Shown here: one piece after another, positions 1 through 35,332 of the stretch | How the letters are laid out: the number at the start of each line of letters is the position of its first letter | Numbering within the stretch: the first letter of the stretch is position 1 | Source: Naegleria gruberi | Lineage: Eukaryota | NCBI GenBank assembly: GCA_000004985.1 | Contig: GG739231.1 | Direction: 5' to 3' (one strand) | DNA length: 36,114 nucleotides | Made by a program: the position numbers and the translations under genes | Notes under the pieces: generated by a model | Told to the model about the DNA's origin: nothing | Database searches by the model: none | Seen by the model: the letters and a program-made list of their open reading frames with translations, nothing else

Positions 1-153
1 ACAATTTTGTAAATAGTTATTCTTCCAGTACTGGTTTAGTCAATTGTTCTACTATTTCTTCTATTGATTTGTCTTTAACCAACTTGGTGAGGTCATAAAG
101 AATACAAATCACTTTTTGGAGAAACACATCCAGCCTTTGCCTTTTCAGGGGAA

Positions 154-1014
154 TCATAAAGAGGAGTGGTGAGTACCAGATTTGGATTTGATTGGTTTAA
201 GTTCCTTATCAAAACATTGATTTCCATTGAAAGAGTGGTAGAGTAATGAGATGCCATAATCAATCAAAAAGAAATGACCATCATAGTTGACCACATTTAT
301 TTTTGAACTTGGTAACTGGCTCGCCTTCTAGAGTAGGTAACATTGCGATATAAAGTGTGAGAAAGGGTAGTTGAGTGATTTTAATGTCATTACTGAGATT
401 TTTTTGCAATAAGCATTCCATGATTTACCAAGATCGTTCTCTAAAACTCCTTTCCACAGTGAATCAGTTGTACTGGAAGAAACATCTTTTGCTTTTTCTT
501 TGAAGGAAAAATGTAGAGAGAGATCTATTTGAACTTTTGTTTCCAATGATTTTGACTCTGTTGGTTCCATTAGAGAGGACATAGCTTGTCTTAGATATTG
601 TTCAACCATATTTGAATCAGGTATCATGAATGATTGTAGGATATAATCAACCAATTGTCATGTTGATAACTTCCAATAAAGAACAATGAATGGCTTGTAC
701 TCAGACTATTATCAACAATAGCTTGCAAACAATACAGATTGGTCACTTCTCTATCTGTTGTCATTCCCAAAACGAATAGATTATTGTGTATTTCTGGCTT
801 AAGGTCTCTTTTAACTAGTTCTCTCACGTTTCTAGATAATGCTAATCGCATGATAAAAATTTAGATGATTCATAAATCTATCTTTGTTGTCTTCCCTTAT
901 TATCTTTAAAAGAAGCTTTTCATTGTATTGTTGAACTAGGACAGCATCCACTTGTAGTTCTGTTAAAGATTGCTGTATGTTTGTTGAGTAAACCTGGAAT
1001 TTGCTTATTGCTAT
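154..1014 (-). pseudogene. Protein-kinase-like relic, split over two reading frames with in-frame stops; probable kinase pseudogene or pseudokinase remnant
   Basis: Minus-strand frame A (codon starts ≡0 mod 3): IAISKFQVYSTNIQQSLTELQVDAVLVQQYNEKLLLKIIREDNKDRFMNHLNFYHAISII* (1014..832). This resembles kinase subdomains IV-V: hpNI…L…, then LVxEY. Frame B (851..624): MRLALSRNVRELVKRDLKPEIHNNLFVLGMTT…. This resembles the catalytic loop (V)HRDLKPEN with H replaced by K. Frame A again (657..154) is broken by TAG at 330-328: …DSLWKGVLENDLGKSWNAYCKKISVMTLKS…CYLL*KASQLPSSKINVVNYDGHFFLIDYGISLLYHSFNGNQCFDKELKPIKSKSGTHHSSL*. This resembles a Gly-loop/β3 stretch (LxxxLGxG…VAIKTLK), NILVxxxGxxKIxDFGLS, and a PIK activation-loop stretch. 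There are four disablements: TGA at 1015, a frame A→B switch at a T5 run (855-859), a frame B→A switch near 624-657, and TAG at 328. Motif spacing is abnormal. Gly-loop to DYG is about 45 residues, against about 110 in a normal kinase. Confidence 0.35.
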
Positions 1015-1489
1015 TCACCAACAGATTGTTGCACGATGAAAGTGCTGCAAGATCGAAAAGTGACTAAAATGGGTTGTAGTTTTTGGTAATTTTGTGGTTT
1101 CCTCATCTTTTTCAAGTTGGAGAGGATCTAGAGCTCTCAATATAAAAGACTTGTTATCAGTCTTTAGTTTGTAATAACTCAAAACAATGTTCAGATTCTC
1201 TTGGGATGGTTGTTTGACATACTCCAACAAGTGTTGGCTTCCCTTGTGTTGGTCTTCATTAAAAATAGAGCAATTCAATAATGAAAAGGTAATATTCATA
1301 GCTAACACCATTCTATTGAATGCCTCTTGTTTGGAGCAACCTAAAATGGTGGAGAGTTTGTCTAAATCCTCAACAACCTTATCTTGCACAGAAACTAGGT
1401 TCGATTCTTTGTTTAAATAATATTCAATCTCTTTCAAATAGTCATTATTTAACAAAGTTTCCGTGAGCTTGAAAGGTGTTTTGCAGTCT
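1015..1489 (-). CDS. 3' (C-terminal) portion of a protein-coding gene whose 5' part lies in the N run; hypothetical protein, family not recognised
   Basis: The minus-strand frame is open from the gap edge down to TGA at 1017-1015. It is 157 codons with globular, helix-like composition: …FKLTETLLNNDYLKEIEYYLNKESNLVSVQDKVVEDLDKLSTILGCSKQEAFNRMVLAMNITF…HLLEYVKQPSQENLNIVLSYYKLKTDNKSF…. The opposite strand (ORF 1187..1420, +) is W/C/F-rich, as expected for antisense. It may instead be the N-terminal part of the kinase-like locus downstream, since the same frame stays open for 60 more codons after the TGA. Confidence 0.4.
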
Positions 1490-4400
1490 NNNNNNNNNNN
1501 NNNNNNNNNNNNNNNNNNNNNNNNNNNNNNNNNNNNNNNNNNNNNNNNNNNNNNNNNNNNNNNNNNNNNNNNNNNNNNNNNNNNNNNNNNNNNNNNNNNN
1601 NNNNNNNNNNNNNNNNNNNNNNNNNNNNNNNNNNNNNNNNNNNNNNNNNNNNNNNNNNNNNNNNNNNNNNNNNNNNNNNNNNNNNNNNNNNNNNNNNNNN
1701 NNNNNNNNNNNNNNNNNNNNNNNNNNNNNNNNNNNNNNNNNNNNNNNNNNNNNNNNNNNNNNNNNNNNNNNNNNNNNNNNNNNNNNNNNNNNNNNNNNNN
1801 NNNNNNNNNNNNNNNNNNNNNNNNNNNNNNNNNNNNNNNNNNNNNNNNNNNNNNNNNNNNNNNNNNNNNNNNNNNNNNNNNNNNNNNNNNNNNNNNNNNN
1901 NNNNNNNNNNNNNNNNNNNNNNNNNNNNNNNNNNNNNNNNNNNNNNNNNNNNNNNNNNNNNNNNNNNNNNNNNNNNNNNNNNNNNNNNNNNNNNNNNNNN
2001 NNNNNNNNNNNNNNNNNNNNNNNNNNNNNNNNNNNNNNNNNNNNNNNNNNNNNNNNNNNNNNNNNNNNNNNNNNNNNNNNNNNNNNNNNNNNNNNNNNNN
2101 NNNNNNNNNNNNNNNNNNNNNNNNNNNNNNNNNNNNNNNNNNNNNNNNNNNNNNNNNNNNNNNNNNNNNNNNNNNNNNNNNNNNNNNNNNNNNNNNNNNN
2201 NNNNNNNNNNNNNNNNNNNNNNNNNNNNNNNNNNNNNNNNNNNNNNNNNNNNNNNNNNNNNNNNNNNNNNNNNNNNNNNNNNNNNNNNNNNNNNNNNNNN
2301 NNNNNNNNNNNNNNNNNNNNNNNNNNNNNNNNNNNNNNNNNNNNNNNNNNNNNNNNNNNNNNNNNNNNNNNNNNNNNNNNNNNNNNNNNNNNNNNNNNNN
2401 NNNNNNNNNNNNNNNNNNNNNNNNNNNNNNNNNNNNNNNNNNNNNNNNNNNNNNNNNNNNNNNNNNNNNNNNNNNNNNNNNNNNNNNNNNNNNNNNNNNN
2501 NNNNNNNNNNNNNNNNNNNNNNNNNNNNNNNNNNNNNNNNNNNNNNNNNNNNNNNNNNNNNNNNNNNNNNNNNNNNNNNNNNNNNNNNNNNNNNNNNNNN
2601 NNNNNNNNNNNNNNNNNNNNNNNNNNNNNNNNNNNNNNNNNNNNNNNNNNNNNNNNNNNNNNNNNNNNNNNNNNNNNNNNNNNNNNNNNNNNNNNNNNNN
2701 NNNNNNNNNNNNNNNNNNNNNNNNNNNNNNNNNNNNNNNNNNNNNNNNNNNNNNNNNNNNNNNNNNNNNNNNNNNNNNNNNNNNNNNNNNNNNNNNNNNN
2801 NNNNNNNNNNNNNNNNNNNNNNNNNNNNNNNNNNNNNNNNNNNNNNNNNNNNNNNNNNNNNNNNNNNNNNNNNNNNNNNNNNNNNNNNNNNNNNNNNNNN
2901 NNNNNNNNNNNNNNNNNNNNNNNNNNNNNNNNNNNNNNNNNNNNNNNNNNNNNNNNNNNNNNNNNNNNNNNNNNNNNNNNNNNNNNNNNNNNNNNNNNNN
3001 NNNNNNNNNNNNNNNNNNNNNNNNNNNNNNNNNNNNNNNNNNNNNNNNNNNNNNNNNNNNNNNNNNNNNNNNNNNNNNNNNNNNNNNNNNNNNNNNNNNN
3101 NNNNNNNNNNNNNNNNNNNNNNNNNNNNNNNNNNNNNNNNNNNNNNNNNNNNNNNNNNNNNNNNNNNNNNNNNNNNNNNNNNNNNNNNNNNNNNNNNNNN
3201 NNNNNNNNNNNNNNNNNNNNNNNNNNNNNNNNNNNNNNNNNNNNNNNNNNNNNNNNNNNNNNNNNNNNNNNNNNNNNNNNNNNNNNNNNNNNNNNNNNNN
3301 NNNNNNNNNNNNNNNNNNNNNNNNNNNNNNNNNNNNNNNNNNNNNNNNNNNNNNNNNNNNNNNNNNNNNNNNNNNNNNNNNNNNNNNNNNNNNNNNNNNN
3401 NNNNNNNNNNNNNNNNNNNNNNNNNNNNNNNNNNNNNNNNNNNNNNNNNNNNNNNNNNNNNNNNNNNNNNNNNNNNNNNNNNNNNNNNNNNNNNNNNNNN
3501 NNNNNNNNNNNNNNNNNNNNNNNNNNNNNNNNNNNNNNNNNNNNNNNNNNNNNNNNNNNNNNNNNNNNNNNNNNNNNNNNNNNNNNNNNNNNNNNNNNNN
3601 NNNNNNNNNNNNNNNNNNNNNNNNNNNNNNNNNNNNNNNNNNNNNNNNNNNNNNNNNNNNNNNNNNNNNNNNNNNNNNNNNNNNNNNNNNNNNNNNNNNN
3701 NNNNNNNNNNNNNNNNNNNNNNNNNNNNNNNNNNNNNNNNNNNNNNNNNNNNNNNNNNNNNNNNNNNNNNNNNNNNNNNNNNNNNNNNNNNNNNNNNNNN
3801 NNNNNNNNNNNNNNNNNNNNNNNNNNNNNNNNNNNNNNNNNNNNNNNNNNNNNNNNNNNNNNNNNNNNNNNNNNNNNNNNNNNNNNNNNNNNNNNNNNNN
3901 NNNNNNNNNNNNNNNNNNNNNNNNNNNNNNNNNNNNNNNNNNNNNNNNNNNNNNNNNNNNNNNNNNNNNNNNNNNNNNNNNNNNNNNNNNNNNNNNNNNN
4001 NNNNNNNNNNNNNNNNNNNNNNNNNNNNNNNNNNNNNNNNNNNNNNNNNNNNNNNNNNNNNNNNNNNNNNNNNNNNNNNNNNNNNNNNNNNNNNNNNNNN
4101 NNNNNNNNNNNNNNNNNNNNNNNNNNNNNNNNNNNNNNNNNNNNNNNNNNNNNNNNNNNNNNNNNNNNNNNNNNNNNNNNNNNNNNNNNNNNNNNNNNNN
4201 NNNNNNNNNNNNNNNNNNNNNNNNNNNNNNNNNNNNNNNNNNNNNNNNNNNNNNNNNNNNNNNNNNNNNNNNNNNNNNNNNNNNNNNNNNNNNNNNNNNN
4301 NNNNNNNNNNNNNNNNNNNNNNNNNNNNNNNNNNNNNNNNNNNNNNNNNNNNNNNNNNNNNNNNNNNNNNNNNNNNNNNNNNNNNNNNNNNNNNNNNNNN

Positions 4401-7400
4401 NNNNNNNNNNNNNNNNNNNNNNNNNNNNNNNNNNNNNNNNNNNNNNNNNNNNNNNNNNNNNNNNNNNNNNNNNNNNNNNNNNNNNNNNNNNNNNNNNNNN
4501 NNNNNNNNNNNNNNNNNNNNNNNNNNNNNNNNNNNNNNNNNNNNNNNNNNNNNNNNNNNNNNNNNNNNNNNNNNNNNNNNNNNNNNNNNNNNNNNNNNNN
4601 NNNNNNNNNNNNNNNNNNNNNNNNNNNNNNNNNNNNNNNNNNNNNNNNNNNNNNNNNNNNNNNNNNNNNNNNNNNNNNNNNNNNNNNNNNNNNNNNNNNN
4701 NNNNNNNNNNNNNNNNNNNNNNNNNNNNNNNNNNNNNNNNNNNNNNNNNNNNNNNNNNNNNNNNNNNNNNNNNNNNNNNNNNNNNNNNNNNNNNNNNNNN
4801 NNNNNNNNNNNNNNNNNNNNNNNNNNNNNNNNNNNNNNNNNNNNNNNNNNNNNNNNNNNNNNNNNNNNNNNNNNNNNNNNNNNNNNNNNNNNNNNNNNNN
4901 NNNNNNNNNNNNNNNNNNNNNNNNNNNNNNNNNNNNNNNNNNNNNNNNNNNNNNNNNNNNNNNNNNNNNNNNNNNNNNNNNNNNNNNNNNNNNNNNNNNN
5001 NNNNNNNNNNNNNNNNNNNNNNNNNNNNNNNNNNNNNNNNNNNNNNNNNNNNNNNNNNNNNNNNNNNNNNNNNNNNNNNNNNNNNNNNNNNNNNNNNNNN
5101 NNNNNNNNNNNNNNNNNNNNNNNNNNNNNNNNNNNNNNNNNNNNNNNNNNNNNNNNNNNNNNNNNNNNNNNNNNNNNNNNNNNNNNNNNNNNNNNNNNNN
5201 NNNNNNNNNNNNNNNNNNNNNNNNNNNNNNNNNNNNNNNNNNNNNNNNNNNNNNNNNNNNNNNNNNNNNNNNNNNNNNNNNNNNNNNNNNNNNNNNNNNN
5301 NNNNNNNNNNNNNNNNNNNNNNNNNNNNNNNNNNNNNNNNNNNNNNNNNNNNNNNNNNNNNNNNNNNNNNNNNNNNNNNNNNNNNNNNNNNNNNNNNNNN
5401 NNNNNNNNNNNNNNNNNNNNNNNNNNNNNNNNNNNNNNNNNNNNNNNNNNNNNNNNNNNNNNNNNNNNNNNNNNNNNNNNNNNNNNNNNNNNNNNNNNNN
5501 NNNNNNNNNNNNNNNNNNNNNNNNNNNNNNNNNNNNNNNNNNNNNNNNNNNNNNNNNNNNNNNNNNNNNNNNNNNNNNNNNNNNNNNNNNNNNNNNNNNN
5601 NNNNNNNNNNNNNNNNNNNNNNNNNNNNNNNNNNNNNNNNNNNNNNNNNNNNNNNNNNNNNNNNNNNNNNNNNNNNNNNNNNNNNNNNNNNNNNNNNNNN
5701 NNNNNNNNNNNNNNNNNNNNNNNNNNNNNNNNNNNNNNNNNNNNNNNNNNNNNNNNNNNNNNNNNNNNNNNNNNNNNNNNNNNNNNNNNNNNNNNNNNNN
5801 NNNNNNNNNNNNNNNNNNNNNNNNNNNNNNNNNNNNNNNNNNNNNNNNNNNNNNNNNNNNNNNNNNNNNNNNNNNNNNNNNNNNNNNNNNNNNNNNNNNN
5901 NNNNNNNNNNNNNNNNNNNNNNNNNNNNNNNNNNNNNNNNNNNNNNNNNNNNNNNNNNNNNNNNNNNNNNNNNNNNNNNNNNNNNNNNNNNNNNNNNNNN
6001 NNNNNNNNNNNNNNNNNNNNNNNNNNNNNNNNNNNNNNNNNNNNNNNNNNNNNNNNNNNNNNNNNNNNNNNNNNNNNNNNNNNNNNNNNNNNNNNNNNNN
6101 NNNNNNNNNNNNNNNNNNNNNNNNNNNNNNNNNNNNNNNNNNNNNNNNNNNNNNNNNNNNNNNNNNNNNNNNNNNNNNNNNNNNNNNNNNNNNNNNNNNN
6201 NNNNNNNNNNNNNNNNNNNNNNNNNNNNNNNNNNNNNNNNNNNNNNNNNNNNNNNNNNNNNNNNNNNNNNNNNNNNNNNNNNNNNNNNNNNNNNNNNNNN
6301 NNNNNNNNNNNNNNNNNNNNNNNNNNNNNNNNNNNNNNNNNNNNNNNNNNNNNNNNNNNNNNNNNNNNNNNNNNNNNNNNNNNNNNNNNNNNNNNNNNNN
6401 NNNNNNNNNNNNNNNNNNNNNNNNNNNNNNNNNNNNNNNNNNNNNNNNNNNNNNNNNNNNNNNNNNNNNNNNNNNNNNNNNNNNNNNNNNNNNNNNNNNN
6501 NNNNNNNNNNNNNNNNNNNNNNNNNNNNNNNNNNNNNNNNNNNNNNNNNNNNNNNNNNNNNNNNNNNNNNNNNNNNNNNNNNNNNNNNNNNNNNNNNNNN
6601 NNNNNNNNNNNNNNNNNNNNNNNNNNNNNNNNNNNNNNNNNNNNNNNNNNNNNNNNNNNNNNNNNNNNNNNNNNNNNNNNNNNNNNNNNNNNNNNNNNNN
6701 NNNNNNNNNNNNNNNNNNNNNNNNNNNNNNNNNNNNNNNNNNNNNNNNNNNNNNNNNNNNNNNNNNNNNNNNNNNNNNNNNNNNNNNNNNNNNNNNNNNN
6801 NNNNNNNNNNNNNNNNNNNNNNNNNNNNNNNNNNNNNNNNNNNNNNNNNNNNNNNNNNNNNNNNNNNNNNNNNNNNNNNNNNNNNNNNNNNNNNNNNNNN
6901 NNNNNNNNNNNNNNNNNNNNNNNNNNNNNNNNNNNNNNNNNNNNNNNNNNNNNNNNNNNNNNNNNNNNNNNNNNNNNNNNNNNNNNNNNNNNNNNNNNNN
7001 NNNNNNNNNNNNNNNNNNNNNNNNNNNNNNNNNNNNNNNNNNNNNNNNNNNNNNNNNNNNNNNNNNNNNNNNNNNNNNNNNNNNNNNNNNNNNNNNNNNN
7101 NNNNNNNNNNNNNNNNNNNNNNNNNNNNNNNNNNNNNNNNNNNNNNNNNNNNNNNNNNNNNNNNNNNNNNNNNNNNNNNNNNNNNNNNNNNNNNNNNNNN
7201 NNNNNNNNNNNNNNNNNNNNNNNNNNNNNNNNNNNNNNNNNNNNNNNNNNNNNNNNNNNNNNNNNNNNNNNNNNNNNNNNNNNNNNNNNNNNNNNNNNNN
7301 NNNNNNNNNNNNNNNNNNNNNNNNNNNNNNNNNNNNNNNNNNNNNNNNNNNNNNNNNNNNNNNNNNNNNNNNNNNNNNNNNNNNNNNNNNNNNNNNNNNN

Positions 7401-10400
7401 NNNNNNNNNNNNNNNNNNNNNNNNNNNNNNNNNNNNNNNNNNNNNNNNNNNNNNNNNNNNNNNNNNNNNNNNNNNNNNNNNNNNNNNNNNNNNNNNNNNN
7501 NNNNNNNNNNNNNNNNNNNNNNNNNNNNNNNNNNNNNNNNNNNNNNNNNNNNNNNNNNNNNNNNNNNNNNNNNNNNNNNNNNNNNNNNNNNNNNNNNNNN
7601 NNNNNNNNNNNNNNNNNNNNNNNNNNNNNNNNNNNNNNNNNNNNNNNNNNNNNNNNNNNNNNNNNNNNNNNNNNNNNNNNNNNNNNNNNNNNNNNNNNNN
7701 NNNNNNNNNNNNNNNNNNNNNNNNNNNNNNNNNNNNNNNNNNNNNNNNNNNNNNNNNNNNNNNNNNNNNNNNNNNNNNNNNNNNNNNNNNNNNNNNNNNN
7801 NNNNNNNNNNNNNNNNNNNNNNNNNNNNNNNNNNNNNNNNNNNNNNNNNNNNNNNNNNNNNNNNNNNNNNNNNNNNNNNNNNNNNNNNNNNNNNNNNNNN
7901 NNNNNNNNNNNNNNNNNNNNNNNNNNNNNNNNNNNNNNNNNNNNNNNNNNNNNNNNNNNNNNNNNNNNNNNNNNNNNNNNNNNNNNNNNNNNNNNNNNNN
8001 NNNNNNNNNNNNNNNNNNNNNNNNNNNNNNNNNNNNNNNNNNNNNNNNNNNNNNNNNNNNNNNNNNNNNNNNNNNNNNNNNNNNNNNNNNNNNNNNNNNN
8101 NNNNNNNNNNNNNNNNNNNNNNNNNNNNNNNNNNNNNNNNNNNNNNNNNNNNNNNNNNNNNNNNNNNNNNNNNNNNNNNNNNNNNNNNNNNNNNNNNNNN
8201 NNNNNNNNNNNNNNNNNNNNNNNNNNNNNNNNNNNNNNNNNNNNNNNNNNNNNNNNNNNNNNNNNNNNNNNNNNNNNNNNNNNNNNNNNNNNNNNNNNNN
8301 NNNNNNNNNNNNNNNNNNNNNNNNNNNNNNNNNNNNNNNNNNNNNNNNNNNNNNNNNNNNNNNNNNNNNNNNNNNNNNNNNNNNNNNNNNNNNNNNNNNN
8401 NNNNNNNNNNNNNNNNNNNNNNNNNNNNNNNNNNNNNNNNNNNNNNNNNNNNNNNNNNNNNNNNNNNNNNNNNNNNNNNNNNNNNNNNNNNNNNNNNNNN
8501 NNNNNNNNNNNNNNNNNNNNNNNNNNNNNNNNNNNNNNNNNNNNNNNNNNNNNNNNNNNNNNNNNNNNNNNNNNNNNNNNNNNNNNNNNNNNNNNNNNNN
8601 NNNNNNNNNNNNNNNNNNNNNNNNNNNNNNNNNNNNNNNNNNNNNNNNNNNNNNNNNNNNNNNNNNNNNNNNNNNNNNNNNNNNNNNNNNNNNNNNNNNN
8701 NNNNNNNNNNNNNNNNNNNNNNNNNNNNNNNNNNNNNNNNNNNNNNNNNNNNNNNNNNNNNNNNNNNNNNNNNNNNNNNNNNNNNNNNNNNNNNNNNNNN
8801 NNNNNNNNNNNNNNNNNNNNNNNNNNNNNNNNNNNNNNNNNNNNNNNNNNNNNNNNNNNNNNNNNNNNNNNNNNNNNNNNNNNNNNNNNNNNNNNNNNNN
8901 NNNNNNNNNNNNNNNNNNNNNNNNNNNNNNNNNNNNNNNNNNNNNNNNNNNNNNNNNNNNNNNNNNNNNNNNNNNNNNNNNNNNNNNNNNNNNNNNNNNN
9001 NNNNNNNNNNNNNNNNNNNNNNNNNNNNNNNNNNNNNNNNNNNNNNNNNNNNNNNNNNNNNNNNNNNNNNNNNNNNNNNNNNNNNNNNNNNNNNNNNNNN
9101 NNNNNNNNNNNNNNNNNNNNNNNNNNNNNNNNNNNNNNNNNNNNNNNNNNNNNNNNNNNNNNNNNNNNNNNNNNNNNNNNNNNNNNNNNNNNNNNNNNNN
9201 NNNNNNNNNNNNNNNNNNNNNNNNNNNNNNNNNNNNNNNNNNNNNNNNNNNNNNNNNNNNNNNNNNNNNNNNNNNNNNNNNNNNNNNNNNNNNNNNNNNN
9301 NNNNNNNNNNNNNNNNNNNNNNNNNNNNNNNNNNNNNNNNNNNNNNNNNNNNNNNNNNNNNNNNNNNNNNNNNNNNNNNNNNNNNNNNNNNNNNNNNNNN
9401 NNNNNNNNNNNNNNNNNNNNNNNNNNNNNNNNNNNNNNNNNNNNNNNNNNNNNNNNNNNNNNNNNNNNNNNNNNNNNNNNNNNNNNNNNNNNNNNNNNNN
9501 NNNNNNNNNNNNNNNNNNNNNNNNNNNNNNNNNNNNNNNNNNNNNNNNNNNNNNNNNNNNNNNNNNNNNNNNNNNNNNNNNNNNNNNNNNNNNNNNNNNN
9601 NNNNNNNNNNNNNNNNNNNNNNNNNNNNNNNNNNNNNNNNNNNNNNNNNNNNNNNNNNNNNNNNNNNNNNNNNNNNNNNNNNNNNNNNNNNNNNNNNNNN
9701 NNNNNNNNNNNNNNNNNNNNNNNNNNNNNNNNNNNNNNNNNNNNNNNNNNNNNNNNNNNNNNNNNNNNNNNNNNNNNNNNNNNNNNNNNNNNNNNNNNNN
9801 NNNNNNNNNNNNNNNNNNNNNNNNNNNNNNNNNNNNNNNNNNNNNNNNNNNNNNNNNNNNNNNNNNNNNNNNNNNNNNNNNNNNNNNNNNNNNNNNNNNN
9901 NNNNNNNNNNNNNNNNNNNNNNNNNNNNNNNNNNNNNNNNNNNNNNNNNNNNNNNNNNNNNNNNNNNNNNNNNNNNNNNNNNNNNNNNNNNNNNNNNNNN
10001 NNNNNNNNNNNNNNNNNNNNNNNNNNNNNNNNNNNNNNNNNNNNNNNNNNNNNNNNNNNNNNNNNNNNNNNNNNNNNNNNNNNNNNNNNNNNNNNNNNNN
10101 NNNNNNNNNNNNNNNNNNNNNNNNNNNNNNNNNNNNNNNNNNNNNNNNNNNNNNNNNNNNNNNNNNNNNNNNNNNNNNNNNNNNNNNNNNNNNNNNNNNN
10201 NNNNNNNNNNNNNNNNNNNNNNNNNNNNNNNNNNNNNNNNNNNNNNNNNNNNNNNNNNNNNNNNNNNNNNNNNNNNNNNNNNNNNNNNNNNNNNNNNNNN
10301 NNNNNNNNNNNNNNNNNNNNNNNNNNNNNNNNNNNNNNNNNNNNNNNNNNNNNNNNNNNNNNNNNNNNNNNNNNNNNNNNNNNNNNNNNNNNNNNNNNNN

Positions 10401-13400
10401 NNNNNNNNNNNNNNNNNNNNNNNNNNNNNNNNNNNNNNNNNNNNNNNNNNNNNNNNNNNNNNNNNNNNNNNNNNNNNNNNNNNNNNNNNNNNNNNNNNNN
10501 NNNNNNNNNNNNNNNNNNNNNNNNNNNNNNNNNNNNNNNNNNNNNNNNNNNNNNNNNNNNNNNNNNNNNNNNNNNNNNNNNNNNNNNNNNNNNNNNNNNN
10601 NNNNNNNNNNNNNNNNNNNNNNNNNNNNNNNNNNNNNNNNNNNNNNNNNNNNNNNNNNNNNNNNNNNNNNNNNNNNNNNNNNNNNNNNNNNNNNNNNNNN
10701 NNNNNNNNNNNNNNNNNNNNNNNNNNNNNNNNNNNNNNNNNNNNNNNNNNNNNNNNNNNNNNNNNNNNNNNNNNNNNNNNNNNNNNNNNNNNNNNNNNNN
10801 NNNNNNNNNNNNNNNNNNNNNNNNNNNNNNNNNNNNNNNNNNNNNNNNNNNNNNNNNNNNNNNNNNNNNNNNNNNNNNNNNNNNNNNNNNNNNNNNNNNN
10901 NNNNNNNNNNNNNNNNNNNNNNNNNNNNNNNNNNNNNNNNNNNNNNNNNNNNNNNNNNNNNNNNNNNNNNNNNNNNNNNNNNNNNNNNNNNNNNNNNNNN
11001 NNNNNNNNNNNNNNNNNNNNNNNNNNNNNNNNNNNNNNNNNNNNNNNNNNNNNNNNNNNNNNNNNNNNNNNNNNNNNNNNNNNNNNNNNNNNNNNNNNNN
11101 NNNNNNNNNNNNNNNNNNNNNNNNNNNNNNNNNNNNNNNNNNNNNNNNNNNNNNNNNNNNNNNNNNNNNNNNNNNNNNNNNNNNNNNNNNNNNNNNNNNN
11201 NNNNNNNNNNNNNNNNNNNNNNNNNNNNNNNNNNNNNNNNNNNNNNNNNNNNNNNNNNNNNNNNNNNNNNNNNNNNNNNNNNNNNNNNNNNNNNNNNNNN
11301 NNNNNNNNNNNNNNNNNNNNNNNNNNNNNNNNNNNNNNNNNNNNNNNNNNNNNNNNNNNNNNNNNNNNNNNNNNNNNNNNNNNNNNNNNNNNNNNNNNNN
11401 NNNNNNNNNNNNNNNNNNNNNNNNNNNNNNNNNNNNNNNNNNNNNNNNNNNNNNNNNNNNNNNNNNNNNNNNNNNNNNNNNNNNNNNNNNNNNNNNNNNN
11501 NNNNNNNNNNNNNNNNNNNNNNNNNNNNNNNNNNNNNNNNNNNNNNNNNNNNNNNNNNNNNNNNNNNNNNNNNNNNNNNNNNNNNNNNNNNNNNNNNNNN
11601 NNNNNNNNNNNNNNNNNNNNNNNNNNNNNNNNNNNNNNNNNNNNNNNNNNNNNNNNNNNNNNNNNNNNNNNNNNNNNNNNNNNNNNNNNNNNNNNNNNNN
11701 NNNNNNNNNNNNNNNNNNNNNNNNNNNNNNNNNNNNNNNNNNNNNNNNNNNNNNNNNNNNNNNNNNNNNNNNNNNNNNNNNNNNNNNNNNNNNNNNNNNN
11801 NNNNNNNNNNNNNNNNNNNNNNNNNNNNNNNNNNNNNNNNNNNNNNNNNNNNNNNNNNNNNNNNNNNNNNNNNNNNNNNNNNNNNNNNNNNNNNNNNNNN
11901 NNNNNNNNNNNNNNNNNNNNNNNNNNNNNNNNNNNNNNNNNNNNNNNNNNNNNNNNNNNNNNNNNNNNNNNNNNNNNNNNNNNNNNNNNNNNNNNNNNNN
12001 NNNNNNNNNNNNNNNNNNNNNNNNNNNNNNNNNNNNNNNNNNNNNNNNNNNNNNNNNNNNNNNNNNNNNNNNNNNNNNNNNNNNNNNNNNNNNNNNNNNN
12101 NNNNNNNNNNNNNNNNNNNNNNNNNNNNNNNNNNNNNNNNNNNNNNNNNNNNNNNNNNNNNNNNNNNNNNNNNNNNNNNNNNNNNNNNNNNNNNNNNNNN
12201 NNNNNNNNNNNNNNNNNNNNNNNNNNNNNNNNNNNNNNNNNNNNNNNNNNNNNNNNNNNNNNNNNNNNNNNNNNNNNNNNNNNNNNNNNNNNNNNNNNNN
12301 NNNNNNNNNNNNNNNNNNNNNNNNNNNNNNNNNNNNNNNNNNNNNNNNNNNNNNNNNNNNNNNNNNNNNNNNNNNNNNNNNNNNNNNNNNNNNNNNNNNN
12401 NNNNNNNNNNNNNNNNNNNNNNNNNNNNNNNNNNNNNNNNNNNNNNNNNNNNNNNNNNNNNNNNNNNNNNNNNNNNNNNNNNNNNNNNNNNNNNNNNNNN
12501 NNNNNNNNNNNNNNNNNNNNNNNNNNNNNNNNNNNNNNNNNNNNNNNNNNNNNNNNNNNNNNNNNNNNNNNNNNNNNNNNNNNNNNNNNNNNNNNNNNNN
12601 NNNNNNNNNNNNNNNNNNNNNNNNNNNNNNNNNNNNNNNNNNNNNNNNNNNNNNNNNNNNNNNNNNNNNNNNNNNNNNNNNNNNNNNNNNNNNNNNNNNN
12701 NNNNNNNNNNNNNNNNNNNNNNNNNNNNNNNNNNNNNNNNNNNNNNNNNNNNNNNNNNNNNNNNNNNNNNNNNNNNNNNNNNNNNNNNNNNNNNNNNNNN
12801 NNNNNNNNNNNNNNNNNNNNNNNNNNNNNNNNNNNNNNNNNNNNNNNNNNNNNNNNNNNNNNNNNNNNNNNNNNNNNNNNNNNNNNNNNNNNNNNNNNNN
12901 NNNNNNNNNNNNNNNNNNNNNNNNNNNNNNNNNNNNNNNNNNNNNNNNNNNNNNNNNNNNNNNNNNNNNNNNNNNNNNNNNNNNNNNNNNNNNNNNNNNN
13001 NNNNNNNNNNNNNNNNNNNNNNNNNNNNNNNNNNNNNNNNNNNNNNNNNNNNNNNNNNNNNNNNNNNNNNNNNNNNNNNNNNNNNNNNNNNNNNNNNNNN
13101 NNNNNNNNNNNNNNNNNNNNNNNNNNNNNNNNNNNNNNNNNNNNNNNNNNNNNNNNNNNNNNNNNNNNNNNNNNNNNNNNNNNNNNNNNNNNNNNNNNNN
13201 NNNNNNNNNNNNNNNNNNNNNNNNNNNNNNNNNNNNNNNNNNNNNNNNNNNNNNNNNNNNNNNNNNNNNNNNNNNNNNNNNNNNNNNNNNNNNNNNNNNN
13301 NNNNNNNNNNNNNNNNNNNNNNNNNNNNNNNNNNNNNNNNNNNNNNNNNNNNNNNNNNNNNNNNNNNNNNNNNNNNNNNNNNNNNNNNNNNNNNNNNNNN

Positions 13401-16400
13401 NNNNNNNNNNNNNNNNNNNNNNNNNNNNNNNNNNNNNNNNNNNNNNNNNNNNNNNNNNNNNNNNNNNNNNNNNNNNNNNNNNNNNNNNNNNNNNNNNNNN
13501 NNNNNNNNNNNNNNNNNNNNNNNNNNNNNNNNNNNNNNNNNNNNNNNNNNNNNNNNNNNNNNNNNNNNNNNNNNNNNNNNNNNNNNNNNNNNNNNNNNNN
13601 NNNNNNNNNNNNNNNNNNNNNNNNNNNNNNNNNNNNNNNNNNNNNNNNNNNNNNNNNNNNNNNNNNNNNNNNNNNNNNNNNNNNNNNNNNNNNNNNNNNN
13701 NNNNNNNNNNNNNNNNNNNNNNNNNNNNNNNNNNNNNNNNNNNNNNNNNNNNNNNNNNNNNNNNNNNNNNNNNNNNNNNNNNNNNNNNNNNNNNNNNNNN
13801 NNNNNNNNNNNNNNNNNNNNNNNNNNNNNNNNNNNNNNNNNNNNNNNNNNNNNNNNNNNNNNNNNNNNNNNNNNNNNNNNNNNNNNNNNNNNNNNNNNNN
13901 NNNNNNNNNNNNNNNNNNNNNNNNNNNNNNNNNNNNNNNNNNNNNNNNNNNNNNNNNNNNNNNNNNNNNNNNNNNNNNNNNNNNNNNNNNNNNNNNNNNN
14001 NNNNNNNNNNNNNNNNNNNNNNNNNNNNNNNNNNNNNNNNNNNNNNNNNNNNNNNNNNNNNNNNNNNNNNNNNNNNNNNNNNNNNNNNNNNNNNNNNNNN
14101 NNNNNNNNNNNNNNNNNNNNNNNNNNNNNNNNNNNNNNNNNNNNNNNNNNNNNNNNNNNNNNNNNNNNNNNNNNNNNNNNNNNNNNNNNNNNNNNNNNNN
14201 NNNNNNNNNNNNNNNNNNNNNNNNNNNNNNNNNNNNNNNNNNNNNNNNNNNNNNNNNNNNNNNNNNNNNNNNNNNNNNNNNNNNNNNNNNNNNNNNNNNN
14301 NNNNNNNNNNNNNNNNNNNNNNNNNNNNNNNNNNNNNNNNNNNNNNNNNNNNNNNNNNNNNNNNNNNNNNNNNNNNNNNNNNNNNNNNNNNNNNNNNNNN
14401 NNNNNNNNNNNNNNNNNNNNNNNNNNNNNNNNNNNNNNNNNNNNNNNNNNNNNNNNNNNNNNNNNNNNNNNNNNNNNNNNNNNNNNNNNNNNNNNNNNNN
14501 NNNNNNNNNNNNNNNNNNNNNNNNNNNNNNNNNNNNNNNNNNNNNNNNNNNNNNNNNNNNNNNNNNNNNNNNNNNNNNNNNNNNNNNNNNNNNNNNNNNN
14601 NNNNNNNNNNNNNNNNNNNNNNNNNNNNNNNNNNNNNNNNNNNNNNNNNNNNNNNNNNNNNNNNNNNNNNNNNNNNNNNNNNNNNNNNNNNNNNNNNNNN
14701 NNNNNNNNNNNNNNNNNNNNNNNNNNNNNNNNNNNNNNNNNNNNNNNNNNNNNNNNNNNNNNNNNNNNNNNNNNNNNNNNNNNNNNNNNNNNNNNNNNNN
14801 NNNNNNNNNNNNNNNNNNNNNNNNNNNNNNNNNNNNNNNNNNNNNNNNNNNNNNNNNNNNNNNNNNNNNNNNNNNNNNNNNNNNNNNNNNNNNNNNNNNN
14901 NNNNNNNNNNNNNNNNNNNNNNNNNNNNNNNNNNNNNNNNNNNNNNNNNNNNNNNNNNNNNNNNNNNNNNNNNNNNNNNNNNNNNNNNNNNNNNNNNNNN
15001 NNNNNNNNNNNNNNNNNNNNNNNNNNNNNNNNNNNNNNNNNNNNNNNNNNNNNNNNNNNNNNNNNNNNNNNNNNNNNNNNNNNNNNNNNNNNNNNNNNNN
15101 NNNNNNNNNNNNNNNNNNNNNNNNNNNNNNNNNNNNNNNNNNNNNNNNNNNNNNNNNNNNNNNNNNNNNNNNNNNNNNNNNNNNNNNNNNNNNNNNNNNN
15201 NNNNNNNNNNNNNNNNNNNNNNNNNNNNNNNNNNNNNNNNNNNNNNNNNNNNNNNNNNNNNNNNNNNNNNNNNNNNNNNNNNNNNNNNNNNNNNNNNNNN
15301 NNNNNNNNNNNNNNNNNNNNNNNNNNNNNNNNNNNNNNNNNNNNNNNNNNNNNNNNNNNNNNNNNNNNNNNNNNNNNNNNNNNNNNNNNNNNNNNNNNNN
15401 NNNNNNNNNNNNNNNNNNNNNNNNNNNNNNNNNNNNNNNNNNNNNNNNNNNNNNNNNNNNNNNNNNNNNNNNNNNNNNNNNNNNNNNNNNNNNNNNNNNN
15501 NNNNNNNNNNNNNNNNNNNNNNNNNNNNNNNNNNNNNNNNNNNNNNNNNNNNNNNNNNNNNNNNNNNNNNNNNNNNNNNNNNNNNNNNNNNNNNNNNNNN
15601 NNNNNNNNNNNNNNNNNNNNNNNNNNNNNNNNNNNNNNNNNNNNNNNNNNNNNNNNNNNNNNNNNNNNNNNNNNNNNNNNNNNNNNNNNNNNNNNNNNNN
15701 NNNNNNNNNNNNNNNNNNNNNNNNNNNNNNNNNNNNNNNNNNNNNNNNNNNNNNNNNNNNNNNNNNNNNNNNNNNNNNNNNNNNNNNNNNNNNNNNNNNN
15801 NNNNNNNNNNNNNNNNNNNNNNNNNNNNNNNNNNNNNNNNNNNNNNNNNNNNNNNNNNNNNNNNNNNNNNNNNNNNNNNNNNNNNNNNNNNNNNNNNNNN
15901 NNNNNNNNNNNNNNNNNNNNNNNNNNNNNNNNNNNNNNNNNNNNNNNNNNNNNNNNNNNNNNNNNNNNNNNNNNNNNNNNNNNNNNNNNNNNNNNNNNNN
16001 NNNNNNNNNNNNNNNNNNNNNNNNNNNNNNNNNNNNNNNNNNNNNNNNNNNNNNNNNNNNNNNNNNNNNNNNNNNNNNNNNNNNNNNNNNNNNNNNNNNN
16101 NNNNNNNNNNNNNNNNNNNNNNNNNNNNNNNNNNNNNNNNNNNNNNNNNNNNNNNNNNNNNNNNNNNNNNNNNNNNNNNNNNNNNNNNNNNNNNNNNNNN
16201 NNNNNNNNNNNNNNNNNNNNNNNNNNNNNNNNNNNNNNNNNNNNNNNNNNNNNNNNNNNNNNNNNNNNNNNNNNNNNNNNNNNNNNNNNNNNNNNNNNNN
16301 NNNNNNNNNNNNNNNNNNNNNNNNNNNNNNNNNNNNNNNNNNNNNNNNNNNNNNNNNNNNNNNNNNNNNNNNNNNNNNNNNNNNNNNNNNNNNNNNNNNN

Positions 16401-34357: not shown

Positions 34358-34486
34358 CCAACAGAATCGTCTAATGGAAATTCTTCACATCTAGAAGAAT
34401 TAGAAGTTGATGATTTGATAGAAACTAATGATTTCACAACTCCAAGTTTAAAGTCGTTCAACAACTTTCCAAAAGGAGGAAACTGA
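34358..34486 (+). CDS. 3' end of a protein-coding gene emerging from the gap (C-terminal 42 codons + TGA)
   Basis: The + strand frame (codon starts ≡2 mod 3) is open from the gap edge to TGA at 34484-34486: PTESSNGNSSHLEELEVDDLIETNDFTTPSLKSFNNFPKGGN*. It has acidic, Ser/Thr-rich composition. The antisense frame (ORF-track minus ORF starting at 34539, actually a TTG) is Phe/Leu-rich, typical of the antisense of K/E-rich coding sequence. The body of the gene is unresolved. Confidence 0.35.
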   Translation, partial: PTESSNGNSSHLEELEVDDLIETNDFTTPSLKSFNNFPKGGN

Positions 34487-34625
34487 GGAAACAACAACCT
34501 TTCAAGTTGAAATTCCTGAAAAAGAATGGAAAAGAACAATTAACAGACAAGTTTATTCTACTACTCAACCAATTAATCGTTCCATTCAAGAATTGAAACA
34601 ACAAGTGACCGAAACAAAACGAAAC

Positions 34626-35291
34626 ATGTTGTCAATTTCCACTCCTCTATGGATTTTGGTCTTCCTTCTCTCAGTTTTGATTGCAATTGAATATTCCAAG
34701 TTTCAATTTGTTTCTAATAATTCATCAACAGCAACCCAACAACCAAATTATATTTACAACAATTACACAACCATTCAATCAAAATATTCAACTAGATCAT
34801 TAGAAACCAATGCCAATGACAATATTAAGAGCTCTAATAACCCTCCTTCTTCTCTTCCTTCCCCACCAATTCCAAAACTCACAATTCAATTCATTTCTGA
34901 AAATGTCCAATACATTAATACTGGTTATCTTCAAGAAAAGTTTACAAAATCACTCAGTTCATTGACAGTCCCTCCAAAAATTCAATTCGAATTCAAAAGA
35001 TTAAAATCCATAGATGAAATCACTAAGAATTCATTCTTCCTCTTAATTGTACAATCCACAAGATTCCACGATGAAGAAAGGGAACATCTCTTGAAGAAGT
35101 ATACAAAGGATATTCCATTAGATCAATGTGCTGTCATTTTCGTATGTCTTTCAGATTTGATTAGATTGACTAAAGATCAAACTATGGGAAGAGATGTTTT
35201 CAGTGTGAAATGGAATGAAAATGTCAAACAAATTAATGAAAGAGATGAAAAAACAATTGGAAAATTGATTGAAAAAATTATTGGTGAATAA
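34626..35291 (+). CDS. Hypothetical secretory-pathway protein, 221 aa: N-terminal signal peptide or signal anchor, N/S/T/P-rich stalk, small C-terminal domain
   Basis: ATG at 34626 (context aaacATGt) starts MLSISTPLWILVFLLSVLIAIEYSKF…. This is a 17-residue uninterrupted hydrophobic core straight after the Met. It is followed by a low-complexity stalk with NxS/T sequons (NNSS, NYTT): SNNSSTATQQPNYIYNNYTTIQSKYSTRSLETNANDNIKSSNNPPSSLPSPPIPK. A C-terminal region of about 130 aa follows (…FFLLIVQSTRFHDEEREHLLKKYTKDIPLDQCAVIFVCLSDL…KLIEKIIGE). The stop is TAA at 35289-35291. The ORF track starts it at 34593, which is a TTG. The first in-frame ATG is 34626. The frame is additionally open upstream to 34452 (see findings). 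Confidence 0.7.
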   Translation: MLSISTPLWILVFLLSVLIAIEYSKFQFVSNNSSTATQQPNYIYNNYTTIQSKYSTRSLETNANDNIKSSNNPPSSLPSPPIPKLTIQFISENVQYINTGYLQEKFTKSLSSLTVPPKIQFEFKRLKSIDEITKNSFFLLIVQSTRFHDEEREHLLKKYTKDIPLDQCAVIFVCLSDLIRLTKDQTMGRDVFSVKWNENVKQINERDEKTIGKLIEKIIGE

Positions 35292-35292
35292 A
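35287..35292 (+). promoter_or_regulatory. AATAAA hexamer overlapping the TAA stop of the 221-aa protein gene (possible polyadenylation/positioning element)
   Basis: The sequence ggtgAATAAAct contains AATAAA, with TAA at 35289-35291 embedded in it. AT-rich context makes a chance occurrence plausible. It is only meaningful if the genome is eukaryotic. Confidence 0.2.
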
Positions 35293-35326
35293 CTTTGACA
35301 GCTCGAGTTGGACAATAATCTTTACA

Positions 35327-35332
35327 TTTATT
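35327..35332 (-). promoter_or_regulatory. AATAAA hexamer (minus strand) overlapping the TAA stop of the nucleotidyltransferase gene
   Basis: Plus strand 35327-35332 is tttatt. On the minus strand it reads …attAAATAAAtgt…, with the stop TAA (35330-35328) inside AATAAA. It is the mirror image of the arrangement on the convergent gene 36 bp away. Confidence 0.2.

What the first reader, a model, noticed from the sequence alone, without database searches (positions are those of the whole stretch)
154..1014. Patchwork of protein-kinase motifs split across two frames with two in-frame stops; a decayed kinase or pseudokinase locus
Three adjacent minus-strand ORF pieces each carry kinase-like landmarks in the right 5'→3' order. 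LVQQYNEK resembles the subdomain V hinge motif LVMEY. KRDLKPE resembles the catalytic loop. A second stretch resembles a Gly-loop/β3 (LENDLGKSWNAY…ISVMTLKS versus LxxxLGxGxFGxV…VAIKTLK), followed by NVVNYDGHFFLIDYGIS (DFG region) and PIK. But H of HRD is K, the VAIK lysine position is M, and spacing between landmarks is far too short. The reading frame switches twice, and TGA (1015) and TAG (328) interrupt. The intact genes in the right flank show the sequence is not generally indel-ridden, so the disablements are probably biological and this is a pseudogene. Expanded, partly decayed kinase families are typical of some AT-rich parasitic protists, and such decayed copies often sit at assembly gaps. 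The frame may also be continuous with the 1015-1489 CDS fragment, giving one long degraded gene running into the gap.
Basis: partly seen in the sequence, partly recalled or inferred. Interest (0 to 1): 0.5.

Follow-up and report, generated by a model that had tools for sequence, protein, structure and literature searches.

The report
Decayed copy of Naegleria kinase gene
The flagged stretch is a broken, almost certainly non-functional second copy of a Naegleria gruberi-specific protein-kinase gene lying on a tiny leftover assembly scaffold; it is an ordinary pseudogene or haplotig, not a new kind of element.

Summary
The window is one whole 36,114-bp Naegleria gruberi scaffold: two ~1.5-kb contigs joined by 32,868 Ns. 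The minus strand of 1-1489 is collinear with residues ~57-580 of two intact ~665-aa Naegleria proteins (large N-terminal domain plus divergent Ser/Thr kinase) at 47% identity. Following that homology takes seven robust frame changes. Multi-base deletions remove conserved motifs, including the kinase catalytic loop. The eight homology-supported segments hold 0 stops in 456 codons, against 34 and 40 in the off-frames. So this was a constrained gene until recently.

A near-identical copy (80/82 codons), NAEGRDRAFT_74296 on a 238-kb scaffold, still has the catalytic loop and reads through one frameshift site. The right-flank gene also has a 99%-identical twin on that scaffold. The window is therefore a haplotig or recent duplicate carrying a dead copy.

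Most motif calls do not. KRDLKPE and LVQQYNEK lie in the non-kinase N-terminal domain. VMTLKS and both "in-frame" stops are off-frame. There are seven or more frame changes, not two. This is an ordinary finding of low interest. One side lead is untested: the family's N-terminal domain has a PD-(D/E)xK-like motif.

The parts
1..1489 (-). Whole decayed gene copy as far as it is present. The 5' end is lost in the N gap and the 3' end is cut by the scaffold end. It is collinear with residues ~57-580 of P0001 (N. lovaniensis C9374_005630) and P0002 (N. gruberi NAEGRDRAFT_62395).
   Evidence: E = 4e-84; 47% identity to each homologue over 451 columns; 71% of positions invariant between the two intact proteins are retained.
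1063..1473 (-). Segment S1 (frame 1): start of the N-terminal domain, ending ...TTTHFS.
   Evidence: 137 codons, no stop.
1061..1062 (-). Junction J1: net 1-nt deletion inside the conserved HFS[P/S]LF[D/E]LA motif (frame 1 to frame 0).
   Evidence: The motif has fixed spacing in P0001, P0002 and P0012.
980..1060 (-). Segment S2 (frame 0): LFDLAALSSCNNLLVNSNKQIPGLLNK.
979..979 (-). Junction J2: frame 0 to frame 1. Six residues of the homologues (KILSKK) have no counterpart. Size is uncertain (about -17 nt, or +1 nt if this copy is naturally shorter).
862..978 (-). Segment S3 (frame 1): ...ELQVDAVLVQQYNEKLLLKIIREDNKDRFMNHL. This is the N-terminal-domain core (D...EDK motif, with K replaced by N).
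855..861 (-). Junction J3: frame 1 to frame 2. About 8 codons are missing, including the nearly invariant HPDF motif (D270 of P0002). This amounts to a deletion of roughly 23 nt.
660..860 (-). Segment S4 (frame 2): IFIMRLALSRNVRELVKRDLKPEIHNNLFVLGMTTD...SLFFIGSYQH.
658..659 (-). Junction J4: frame 2 to frame 1. Seven residues (SDIEDRA, including a family-conserved Arg) are replaced by 2 nt, a deletion of about 19 nt.
394..657 (-). Segment S5 (frame 1): QLVDYILQSF...SLWKGVLENDLGKSWNAYCKKIS. This is the end of the N-terminal domain and the probable beta1-beta3 of a glycine-loop-less kinase N-lobe (K of AYCKK = putative beta3 Lys).
392..393 (-). Junction J5: frame 1 to frame 0. Size is uncertain (-7 or -1 nt).
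299..391 (-). Segment S6 (frame 0): NDIKITQLPFLTLYIAMLPTLEGEPVTKFKN (alphaC-beta5/hinge region). The last 16 codons are 100% identical to the start of P0018.
296..298 (-). Junction J6: 80-nt deletion relative to NAEGRDRAFT_74296. It removes EEAIIDLVQLVLLGICKTIHNDIKPD, the end of alphaE plus the catalytic loop HxDxKP. Frame 0 to frame 1.
   Evidence: P0018 scores 36.5 bits on Pkinase, against 14.5 bits for the stitched window segment and no hit for the repaired protein.
178..297 (-). Segment S7 (frame 1): NVVNYDGHFFLIDYGISLLYHSFNGNQCFDKELKPIKSKS, covering the catalytic-loop Asn, DFG (as DYG) and the activation segment.
   Evidence: 97.5% identical to P0018.
177..177 (-). Junction J7: 1-nt insertion relative to NAEGRDRAFT_74296 (frame 1 to frame 2).
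96..176 (-). Segment S8 (frame 2): VLTTPLYDSPEKAKAGCVSPKSDLYSL, covering APE (as SPE) and subdomain IX.
93..95 (-). TGA stop exactly where the homologues and P0018 have the Gly of SLG. This could be a GGA-to-TGA nonsense change or a further frame change. Sequence downstream (92-1) could not be assigned confidently.
   Evidence: inference.
1490..34357 (.). Assembly gap of 32,868 Ns. It hides the gene's first ~57 codons and its promoter.

Best explanation
Window 1-1489 (minus strand) is a dead copy, an unprocessed pseudogene, of a member of a Naegleria-expanded gene family. The family encodes proteins of ~650 aa with a ~350-aa N-terminal domain of unknown function followed by a divergent, non-RD (HND), DYG-type Ser/Thr kinase domain. 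The whole window is a small N. gruberi scaffold that duplicates, at ~98-99% protein identity, a locus on a 238,573-bp scaffold (NAEGRDRAFT_53363 ... NAEGRDRAFT_74296). So it is either the alternative haplotype or a very recent segmental duplicate.

Shown: the copy cannot make the family protein. It has seven robust reading-frame changes. It has lost the nearly invariant HPDF motif and a conserved Arg of the N-terminal domain. An 80-nt deletion removes the end of helix alphaE and the catalytic loop (HNDIKPD).

Inferred: the decay is recent and deletion-biased. The coding signal is still clean (no stops in the true frames). The sequence is no more diverged from the two intact homologues than they are from each other. 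The partner copy on the main scaffold still has the catalytic loop. That partner is annotated only as a 115-aa fragment, so it is probably damaged as well, but this could not be checked.

The locus is therefore best read as a gene-death intermediate in a fast-turnover lineage-specific family, with no function of its own.
For: - Homology and collinearity.
- Seven frame changes, placed by a frameshift-aware DP and visible in the three-frame read-out.
- 0 stops in 456 codons in supported frames against 34 and 40 off-frame, and a simulation pointing to fewer than ~40 neutral substitutions since inactivation.
- Equal 47% pairwise identities and 71% retention of invariant positions.
- Near-identical copy P0018 = NAEGRDRAFT_74296 (80/82 codons) containing the 26 codons the window lacks and no frameshift at 177. 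Plain tblastn splits P0018 over three window frames.
- Pkinase score 36.5 bits for P0018, 14.5 bits for the stitched window segment and no hit for the repaired window protein.
- The right-flank ORF is gap-free and 255/258 identical to NAEGRDRAFT_53363 on the same 238-kb scaffold, so the scaffold is a true second copy and is not generally indel-ridden.
- Missing HPDF/D270 and conserved Arg compared with a 19-member family alignment.
- Heterozygosity of N. gruberi NEG-M, reported by Fritz-Laylin et al. 2010 as cited in PMC9928731.
- No introns that could rescue the frame. The DNA is shorter than the homologues' CDS, never longer. The only intron in the N. lovaniensis gene follows codon 7.
Against: - No read-level, depth or expression data could be examined.
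- The scaffold is built from two ~1.5-kb contigs bridged by a fosmid-sized gap, so it probably rests on very few Sanger reads. Some single-base frame changes could therefore be errors.
- Only two of the lesions (J6, J7) could be compared with the sister copy. The sizes of J2 and J5 are uncertain. J7 looked like +7 nt against the distant homologues but is +1 nt against the close copy.
- Seven or eight indels with no in-frame stop is somewhat indel-heavy for neutral decay. It is compatible with a Drosophila-like deletion bias (my own knowledge) but is also what indel-type artefacts would give.
Confidence: 0.75

Rival explanations
1. Assembly or cloning artefact. The left contig is a low-coverage, low-quality (or clone-deleted) redundant rendering of the NAEGRDRAFT_74296 locus that failed to merge with the main scaffold. 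The frame changes and deletions are errors and no second, dead copy exists in the organism.
For: The scaffold consists of two ~1.5-kb islands joined by 32,868 Ns, which is typical of a few unplaced reads linked by one fosmid pair (inference). The three residues at the very scaffold edge of the right-flank ORF mismatch its twin. No in-frame stops accompany 7-8 indels. Two gene models separate the twins of the two ends on the main scaffold (accession order), which fits poorly with a 33-kb gap.
Against: Deletions of about 19, 23 and 80 nt are not base-calling errors. The 1,757-bp right contig of the same scaffold has no indel over 258 codons against its twin and shows only 3 substitutions, consistent with allelic divergence. 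The amino-acid differences from the twins (2/82 and 3/258) look like real polymorphism. The main-scaffold gene is annotated only as a 115-aa fragment, which suggests that the locus is defective even in the well-assembled copy.
Confidence: 0.15
2. Heterozygous null allele only. The copy on the 238-kb scaffold is a fully functional full-length gene that was merely under-annotated, and the window is its recently inactivated allele. This is a sub-case of the best explanation that differs on the state of the partner.
For: P0018 keeps the catalytic loop, reads through J7 and passes the Pkinase threshold. The window's coding signal is still clean, which implies very recent inactivation.
Against: Other family members in the same annotation were modelled at full length (666, 684 and 715 aa). 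A 115-aa model that starts at an internal Met and ends six residues after SDLYSL suggests the partner's ORF is also interrupted on both sides (inference).
Confidence: 0.25
3. The locus is still expressed as a functional product. Possibilities are a truncated N-terminal-domain protein, a pseudokinase scaffold, or a gene rescued by splicing, ribosomal frameshifting or editing.
For: The first 137 aligned codons (1473-1063) are an uninterrupted ORF. Every segment keeps a clean coding signal.
Against: The frame changes go in both directions (+1 and -1) with no common slippery motif. The DNA is shorter than the homologous CDS, so there is no intron to remove. Conserved N-terminal-domain motifs and the catalytic loop are physically absent. 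Nuclear insertional editing is not known in Heterolobosea (my own knowledge).
Confidence: 0.03

Closest known systems
NAEGRDRAFT_74296 (XP_002670737.1 / EFC37993.1, 'predicted protein', 115 aa) on a 238,573-bp N. gruberi scaffold
   Same: 80 of 82 aligned codons are identical across window 343-96. It has the same DYG, SPE and SDLYSL motifs. Its neighbourhood also contains the twin (NAEGRDRAFT_53363) of the window's right-flank gene.
   Different: It retains 26 codons (EEAIIDLVQLVLLGICKTIHNDIKPD) that the window has lost through an 80-nt deletion. It lacks the 1-nt insertion at 177. It has Gly where the window has TGA after SDLYSL. It passes the Pkinase threshold, which the window copy does not.
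Full-length family members NAEGRDRAFT_62395 (P0002, 666 aa, N. gruberi) and C9374_005630 (P0001, 663 aa, N. lovaniensis)
   Same: Collinear over ~520 residues at 47% identity. The N-terminal domain and the kinase C-lobe are shared. 71% of the positions invariant between these two are kept in the window.
Eukaryotic protein kinase superfamily (Pfam PF00069 Pkinase)
   Same: The ancestral gene is a member. The intact homologues hit Pkinase at E = 6e-12 to 1e-22 from alphaE onward and align with PknB, TTK, COT and PDK1.
   Different: The family's N-lobe is too divergent for the profile: there is no GxGxxG and only profile positions ~90-260 match. The window copy falls below threshold altogether.
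Pseudokinases (intact proteins with degraded catalytic motifs)
   Same: Loss of the catalytic Asp/Lys loop.
   Different: Pseudokinases keep an uninterrupted ORF and the fold. Here the ORF is broken by frameshifts, and the loop was removed by a frame-shifting 80-nt deletion.
FunK1 / Pkinase_fungal (PF17667)
   Same: Seven of 19 family members give hits to this model, most of them weak. Like FunK1, the family is lineage-expanded and has a long N-terminal extension (the FunK1 comparison is my own knowledge).
   Different: In the members examined individually, matches cover only the catalytic-loop to DFG part of the model (positions ~287-369 of 387) and are below the 24.1-bit threshold. There is no evidence of shared N-terminal regions, so it is not a member.

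Membership tests
Protein kinase domain (Pfam PF00069) | Profile match at or above the gathering score (31.7 bits) | tested here: not met
   The stitched DFG-APE segment scored 14.5 bits, E = 0.024. The repaired 456-aa protein gave no hit at E <= 0.01. The feature is met by P0018 (36.5 bits), P0001 (45.9) and P0002 (56.8).
Protein kinase domain (Pfam PF00069) | Catalytic loop H/Y-x-D-x-K-x-x-N | tested here: not met
   HNDIKPD is removed by the 80-nt deletion at ~298. Only the terminal Asn (NVV) remains.
Protein kinase domain (Pfam PF00069) | DFG, APE and subdomain IX motifs | tested here: met
   LIDYG (DYG), YDSPE and KSDLYSL are present and aligned to the homologues and to PknB, but they lie in two different frames.
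Protein kinase domain (Pfam PF00069) | Gly-rich loop and beta3 Lys / alphaC Glu | tested here: inconclusive
   No family member has GxGxxG. A conserved K column (AFC-K; window AYC-K) is the probable beta3 Lys. N-lobe pLDDT is only 40-70 in the model.
Naegleria N-terminal-domain + kinase family (P0001/P0002/P0012/P0162 and others) | Collinear N-terminal domain followed by a kinase domain | tested here: met
   Frameshift-aware alignment covers residues ~57-580 at 47% identity.
Naegleria N-terminal-domain + kinase family (P0001/P0002/P0012/P0162 and others) | Nearly invariant D238, E256(-D-K258) and H-x-D270-F of the N-terminal domain | tested here: not met
   D (QVD) and E (RED) are present. K258 is replaced (REDNKD). 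HPDF is deleted at J3.
Naegleria N-terminal-domain + kinase family (P0001/P0002/P0012/P0162 and others) | Continuous open reading frame | tested here: not met
   Seven robust frame changes plus a TGA at 95-93.
Unprocessed pseudogene | Clear homology to a functional gene family plus disabling lesions | tested here: met
Unprocessed pseudogene | Lesions are real in the organism's DNA, not assembly errors | not testable with these tools
   No reads were available and the sister-scaffold DNA was not retrievable. Indirect support comes from the multi-base deletions and the clean right-flank contig.
Unprocessed pseudogene | Relaxed constraint (dN/dS near 1) since inactivation, or no expression | not testable with these tools
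   Only protein sequence is available for the close copy. The distant homologues are saturated at synonymous sites. The absence of in-frame stops implies that little time has passed.
Pseudokinase | Intact, foldable kinase-like ORF lacking catalytic residues | tested here: not met
   The ORF is broken.
FunK1 (PF17667) | Match at or above the 24.1-bit threshold that includes regions outside the generic catalytic core | tested here: not met
   Members examined individually score 12-18.5 bits, on profile positions 287-369 only.
PD-(D/E)xK nuclease fold (for the family's N-terminal domain) | alpha-beta-beta-beta-alpha-beta core with D ... (D/E)xK on adjacent strands, supported by a fold or profile match | tested here: inconclusive
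   The motif and the predicted strand order fit. However, there was no PDB sequence hit. There was no Pfam or NCBIfam nuclease hit. Only one weak SduA/DUF4263 hit appeared, E = 0.0035, in 1 of 15 members. All fold searches were swamped by the kinase domain.

The most novel reading that the evidence does not exclude
The relic belongs to a so far undescribed, heterolobosean-expanded family that fuses a PD-(D/E)xK-like (nuclease-fold) N-terminal domain to a glycine-loop-less non-RD kinase. The window, together with its 98%-identical partner that still has a catalytic loop, would then capture allele-by-allele gene death in a fast birth-and-death family of the kind seen in conflict or defence systems.
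Probability: 0.2. Interest if true: 0.45.

Novelty: new member of a known kind. Interest (0 to 1): 0.13.

Why it matters
For the finding itself, it matters little. It is an unannotated pseudogene or haplotig on a leftover scaffold of a 2010 draft assembly. Its practical use is as an annotation note: this scaffold is redundant with part of the 238-kb scaffold, and the left contig should be flagged as a pseudogene.

It does have modest value as an example of deletion-biased decay in a compact protist genome, with lesions of roughly 1, 19, 23 and 80 nt and no nonsense mutation yet in the aligned frames.

It also led to a Naegleria-expanded kinase family with a large conserved N-terminal domain of unknown function. 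If that domain is a nuclease fold, the family would be worth a dedicated study.

Tried and rejected
- Ciliate genetic code (table 6) as an explanation for the stops: rejected. The organism is Naegleria, and the stops are off-frame anyway.
- Introns as the cause of the frame changes: rejected. The window DNA is always shorter than the homologous CDS, never longer. The N. lovaniensis gene has a single intron, after codon 7.
- PI3K/PIKK-type kinase (suggested by NVVNYDGHFFLIDYG): rejected once the homologues matched Pkinase and PknB.
- Pfam on the individual ORF pieces: no meaningful hits.
- Retrieving N. gruberi DNA for P0002, P0003 and P0018 through the look-up of encoding contigs: not on record. 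No nucleotide comparison of the two copies was therefore possible.
- Third homology search, using the N-terminal 358 aa to find gene-model fragments of the main-scaffold copy: it returned nothing, not even P0001 and P0002, which are known to match. The negative is uninformative. One search likewise missed P0018.
- AF2 on the two-sequence alignment: unusable, pLDDT 31.7. The 19-sequence alignment gave a usable model.
- Profile search of the N-terminal domain against PDB sequences, NCBIfam and PADLOC: nothing significant.
- FunK1 membership: rejected.
- Rfam, tRNA and repeat scans of 1-1489: nothing apart from one weak inverted repeat.
- The genome paper and a review were not held. A kinome literature search found nothing on this family.

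Full report
**What the window is.** Only 1-1489 and 34358-36114 are real sequence; 1490-34357 is a run of 32,868 Ns. GC content is about 33%. The right flank carries two compact, intron-less, convergent ORFs. The minus-strand one (36113-35331) matches an N. gruberi 'predicted protein' whose longest contig is 36,114 bp, exactly the window length. So the window is one complete small scaffold of the N. gruberi NEG-M assembly.

**Checking the observation.** Pfam on the separate pieces found nothing. A hand-stitched DFG-APE segment reached only 14.5 bits on Pkinase, below the 31.7-bit threshold.

I then searched with all minus-strand pieces concatenated. This found two proteins at E = 4e-84 and 3e-76: C9374_005630 of N. 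lovaniensis (P0001, 663 aa) and NAEGRDRAFT_62395 of N. gruberi (P0002, 666 aa). Both carry a Pkinase domain, and they cover 91-99% of the query. The sequence is therefore real, homologous coding sequence, far beyond chance.

**Anatomy.** tblastn read through stops, so I wrote a protein-to-DNA dynamic-programming aligner with explicit frameshift states. Residues ~57-580 of both homologues align collinearly to 1473-96 at 47-48% identity. The path changes frame at about 1062, 979, 855-861, 659, 393, 298-319 and 171-177, and possibly again at 95. The three-frame read-outs confirm each junction.

- At J1, a single base is missing inside the fixed-spacing motif HFS[P/S]LF[D/E]LA.
- At J3, about eight codons including HPDF are gone.
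- At J4, seven codons (SDIEDRA) are replaced by 2 nt.
- At J6, about 30 codons including the catalytic loop are gone.

The DNA is never longer than the homologous CDS, so introns cannot explain the frame changes. The N. lovaniensis gene has only one ~50-nt intron, after codon 7.

The eight homology-supported segments contain 0 stops in 456 codons. The other two frames of the same DNA contain 34 and 40. In a three-way alignment all pairwise identities are 47%, and 71% of the positions invariant between the two intact proteins are kept in the window. The copy therefore evolved under constraint for essentially all of its history. A simulation indicates fewer than about 40 neutral substitutions since inactivation.

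- KRDLKPE aligns to KEKLDPS / KKDLESN, and LVQQYNEK aligns to IMVQKYNDK. Both lie in the ~350-aa N-terminal non-kinase domain.
- ISVMTLKS lies beyond the frame change at 393 and is off-frame.
- TGA at 1015 (frame 1) falls where the true frame is frame 0. TAG at 328 (frame 1) also falls where the true frame is frame 0.
- NVVNYDGHFFLIDYGIS is correctly the Asn-to-DFG region. The intact homologue aligns IHNDLKPQNIV...IIDYG...YDSPE...SDLFSLG to PknB IHRDVKPANIL...VVDFG...YLSPE...SDVYSLG.
- LENDLGKSWNAYCKK is roughly the beta1-beta3 region of a glycine-loop-less N-lobe. A conserved K column in the family alignment marks the likely beta3 Lys.

**A near-identical copy in the same genome.** An exhaustive profile search with P0001 and P0002 returned many family members. 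Among them was P0018, 115 aa:

MLPTLEGEPVTKFKNK-EEAIIDLVQLVLLGICKTIHNDIKPD-NVVKYDGHFFLIDYGISLLYHSFNGNQCFDKELKPIKSKSVLTTPLYDSPEKAKDGCVSPKSDLYSLGVYFFY

It is NAEGRDRAFT_74296 (XP_002670737.1, EFC37993.1) on a 238,573-bp N. gruberi scaffold. Against the window it is identical at 80 of 82 aligned codons. It contains 26 codons that the window lacks, which corresponds to an 80-nt deletion in the window taking out the end of alphaE and HNDIKPD. It also has no frameshift at 177, where the window has one extra base. Plain tblastn independently splits P0018 across three window frames at 100%, 97.5% and 96.3% identity. P0018 passes the Pkinase threshold (36.5 bits). The repaired window protein does not hit Pkinase at all.

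The right-flank ORF is gap-free and 255/258 identical (ignoring three edge residues) to the C-terminus of NAEGRDRAFT_53363 (EFC37990), which lies on the same 238-kb scaffold. Both ends of the window thus have 98-99% twins close together on a main scaffold. The window is an alternative haplotype or a very recent duplicate of that locus. Heterozygosity in NEG-M is on record (PMC9928731, citing Fritz-Laylin et al. 2010).

**Explanation.** The best reading (0.75) is a real, dead gene copy. It is an unprocessed pseudogene undergoing deletion-biased decay, caught early: the coding signal is clean, there is no nonsense mutation within the aligned frames, and a single TGA sits exactly at the Gly of SLG. 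The partner copy keeps the catalytic loop. It is modelled only as a 115-aa fragment, whereas other family members in the same annotation are modelled at 666-715 aa, so it is probably damaged too. I could not test this because N. gruberi DNA was not retrievable and the last homology search failed even on known positives.

The main rival (0.15) is an artefact of a low-coverage leftover contig. Three observations argue against it: the 19-, 23- and 80-nt deletions, the indel-free right contig, and the polymorphism-like substitutions. Only reads or PCR can settle the question. A functional product obtained through splicing, recoding or truncation is very unlikely (0.03).

The N-terminal domain has nearly invariant D238 ([KR]PD), E256 and K258 ([IV]xEDK) and D270 (HxDF) on a predicted alpha-beta-beta-alpha-beta-beta-beta unit. 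This resembles a PD-(D/E)xK core. No profile or fold search could confirm it. I report it only as a lead.

**Verdict.** The object is an ordinary pseudogene or haplotig of a lineage-specific kinase family: a new member of a known kind, of low interest.

Noticed in passing
window 1490-34357 (gap), compared with the accessions of the twins: The twins of the two ends of the scaffold are EFC37993 (kinase fragment) and EFC37990 (PolyA_pol-head protein), only three protein accessions apart on the 238,573-bp scaffold. If accession order follows position (my assumption), the two loci are a few kb apart there, not ~33 kb. The 32,868-N gap is then probably overestimated, or the two copies differ structurally.
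   Followed up: partly
Family alignment A2/A3; window 862-978 and 855-861: The ~350-aa N-terminal domain of the family has nearly invariant D ([KR]PD), E-D-K and H-x-D-F motifs on adjacent predicted strands and a helix, resembling a PD-(D/E)xK nuclease core. One of 15 members gives a weak hit (E = 0.0035) to PADLOC SduA/DUF4263. There was no other support, because the fold searches were swamped by the kinase domain.
   Followed up: partly
window 35331-36113 (-): This is the C-terminal part of a PolyA_pol-head (tRNA nucleotidyltransferase / poly(A) polymerase-like) gene. The model annotated on this scaffold (NAEGRDRAFT_76898, 218 aa) uses a spliced C-terminus. The twin on the main scaffold (NAEGRDRAFT_53363, 555 aa) follows the uninterrupted ORF, which the window also has. 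The 218-aa model therefore looks mis-spliced and truncated by the scaffold end.
   Followed up: partly
window 34358-35288 (+): A 279-codon ORF (34452-35288) with a hydrophobic segment and no Pfam hit. A different frame is open from the gap edge to 34483 and overlaps its start, so there may be an intron or a frame change at ~34450-34485, or two separate genes.
   Followed up: no
P0161 (N. fowleri CAG4709305.1, 253 aa) and P0013: The N. fowleri relative of P0001 is annotated as a 253-aa protein. It jumps from the N-terminal domain (…IDKDKN) straight to the DYG region (YGLAILYY…), skipping the kinase N-lobe and catalytic loop. It is either a poor model or another decayed member of the same subfamily.
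   Followed up: no
window 93-95 (-): The stop TGA directly follows SDLYSL, where P0018 and all homologues have Gly (SLG). This is compatible with a single GGA-to-TGA nonsense substitution. P0018 itself ends oddly (…SLGVYFFY*), so the main-scaffold copy may also be abnormal here.
   Followed up: partly
tool behaviour: The word-indexed homology search missed P0018, which shares long exact stretches with the query. It missed P0001 and P0002. Negative results from that tool for this locus should not be trusted. The exhaustive representative search was what found the key sequence.
   Followed up: yes
window 712-729 / 917-934: An 18-nt inverted repeat, 78% complementary, with arms 187 nt apart inside the decayed coding sequence. 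It is most likely chance.
   Followed up: no
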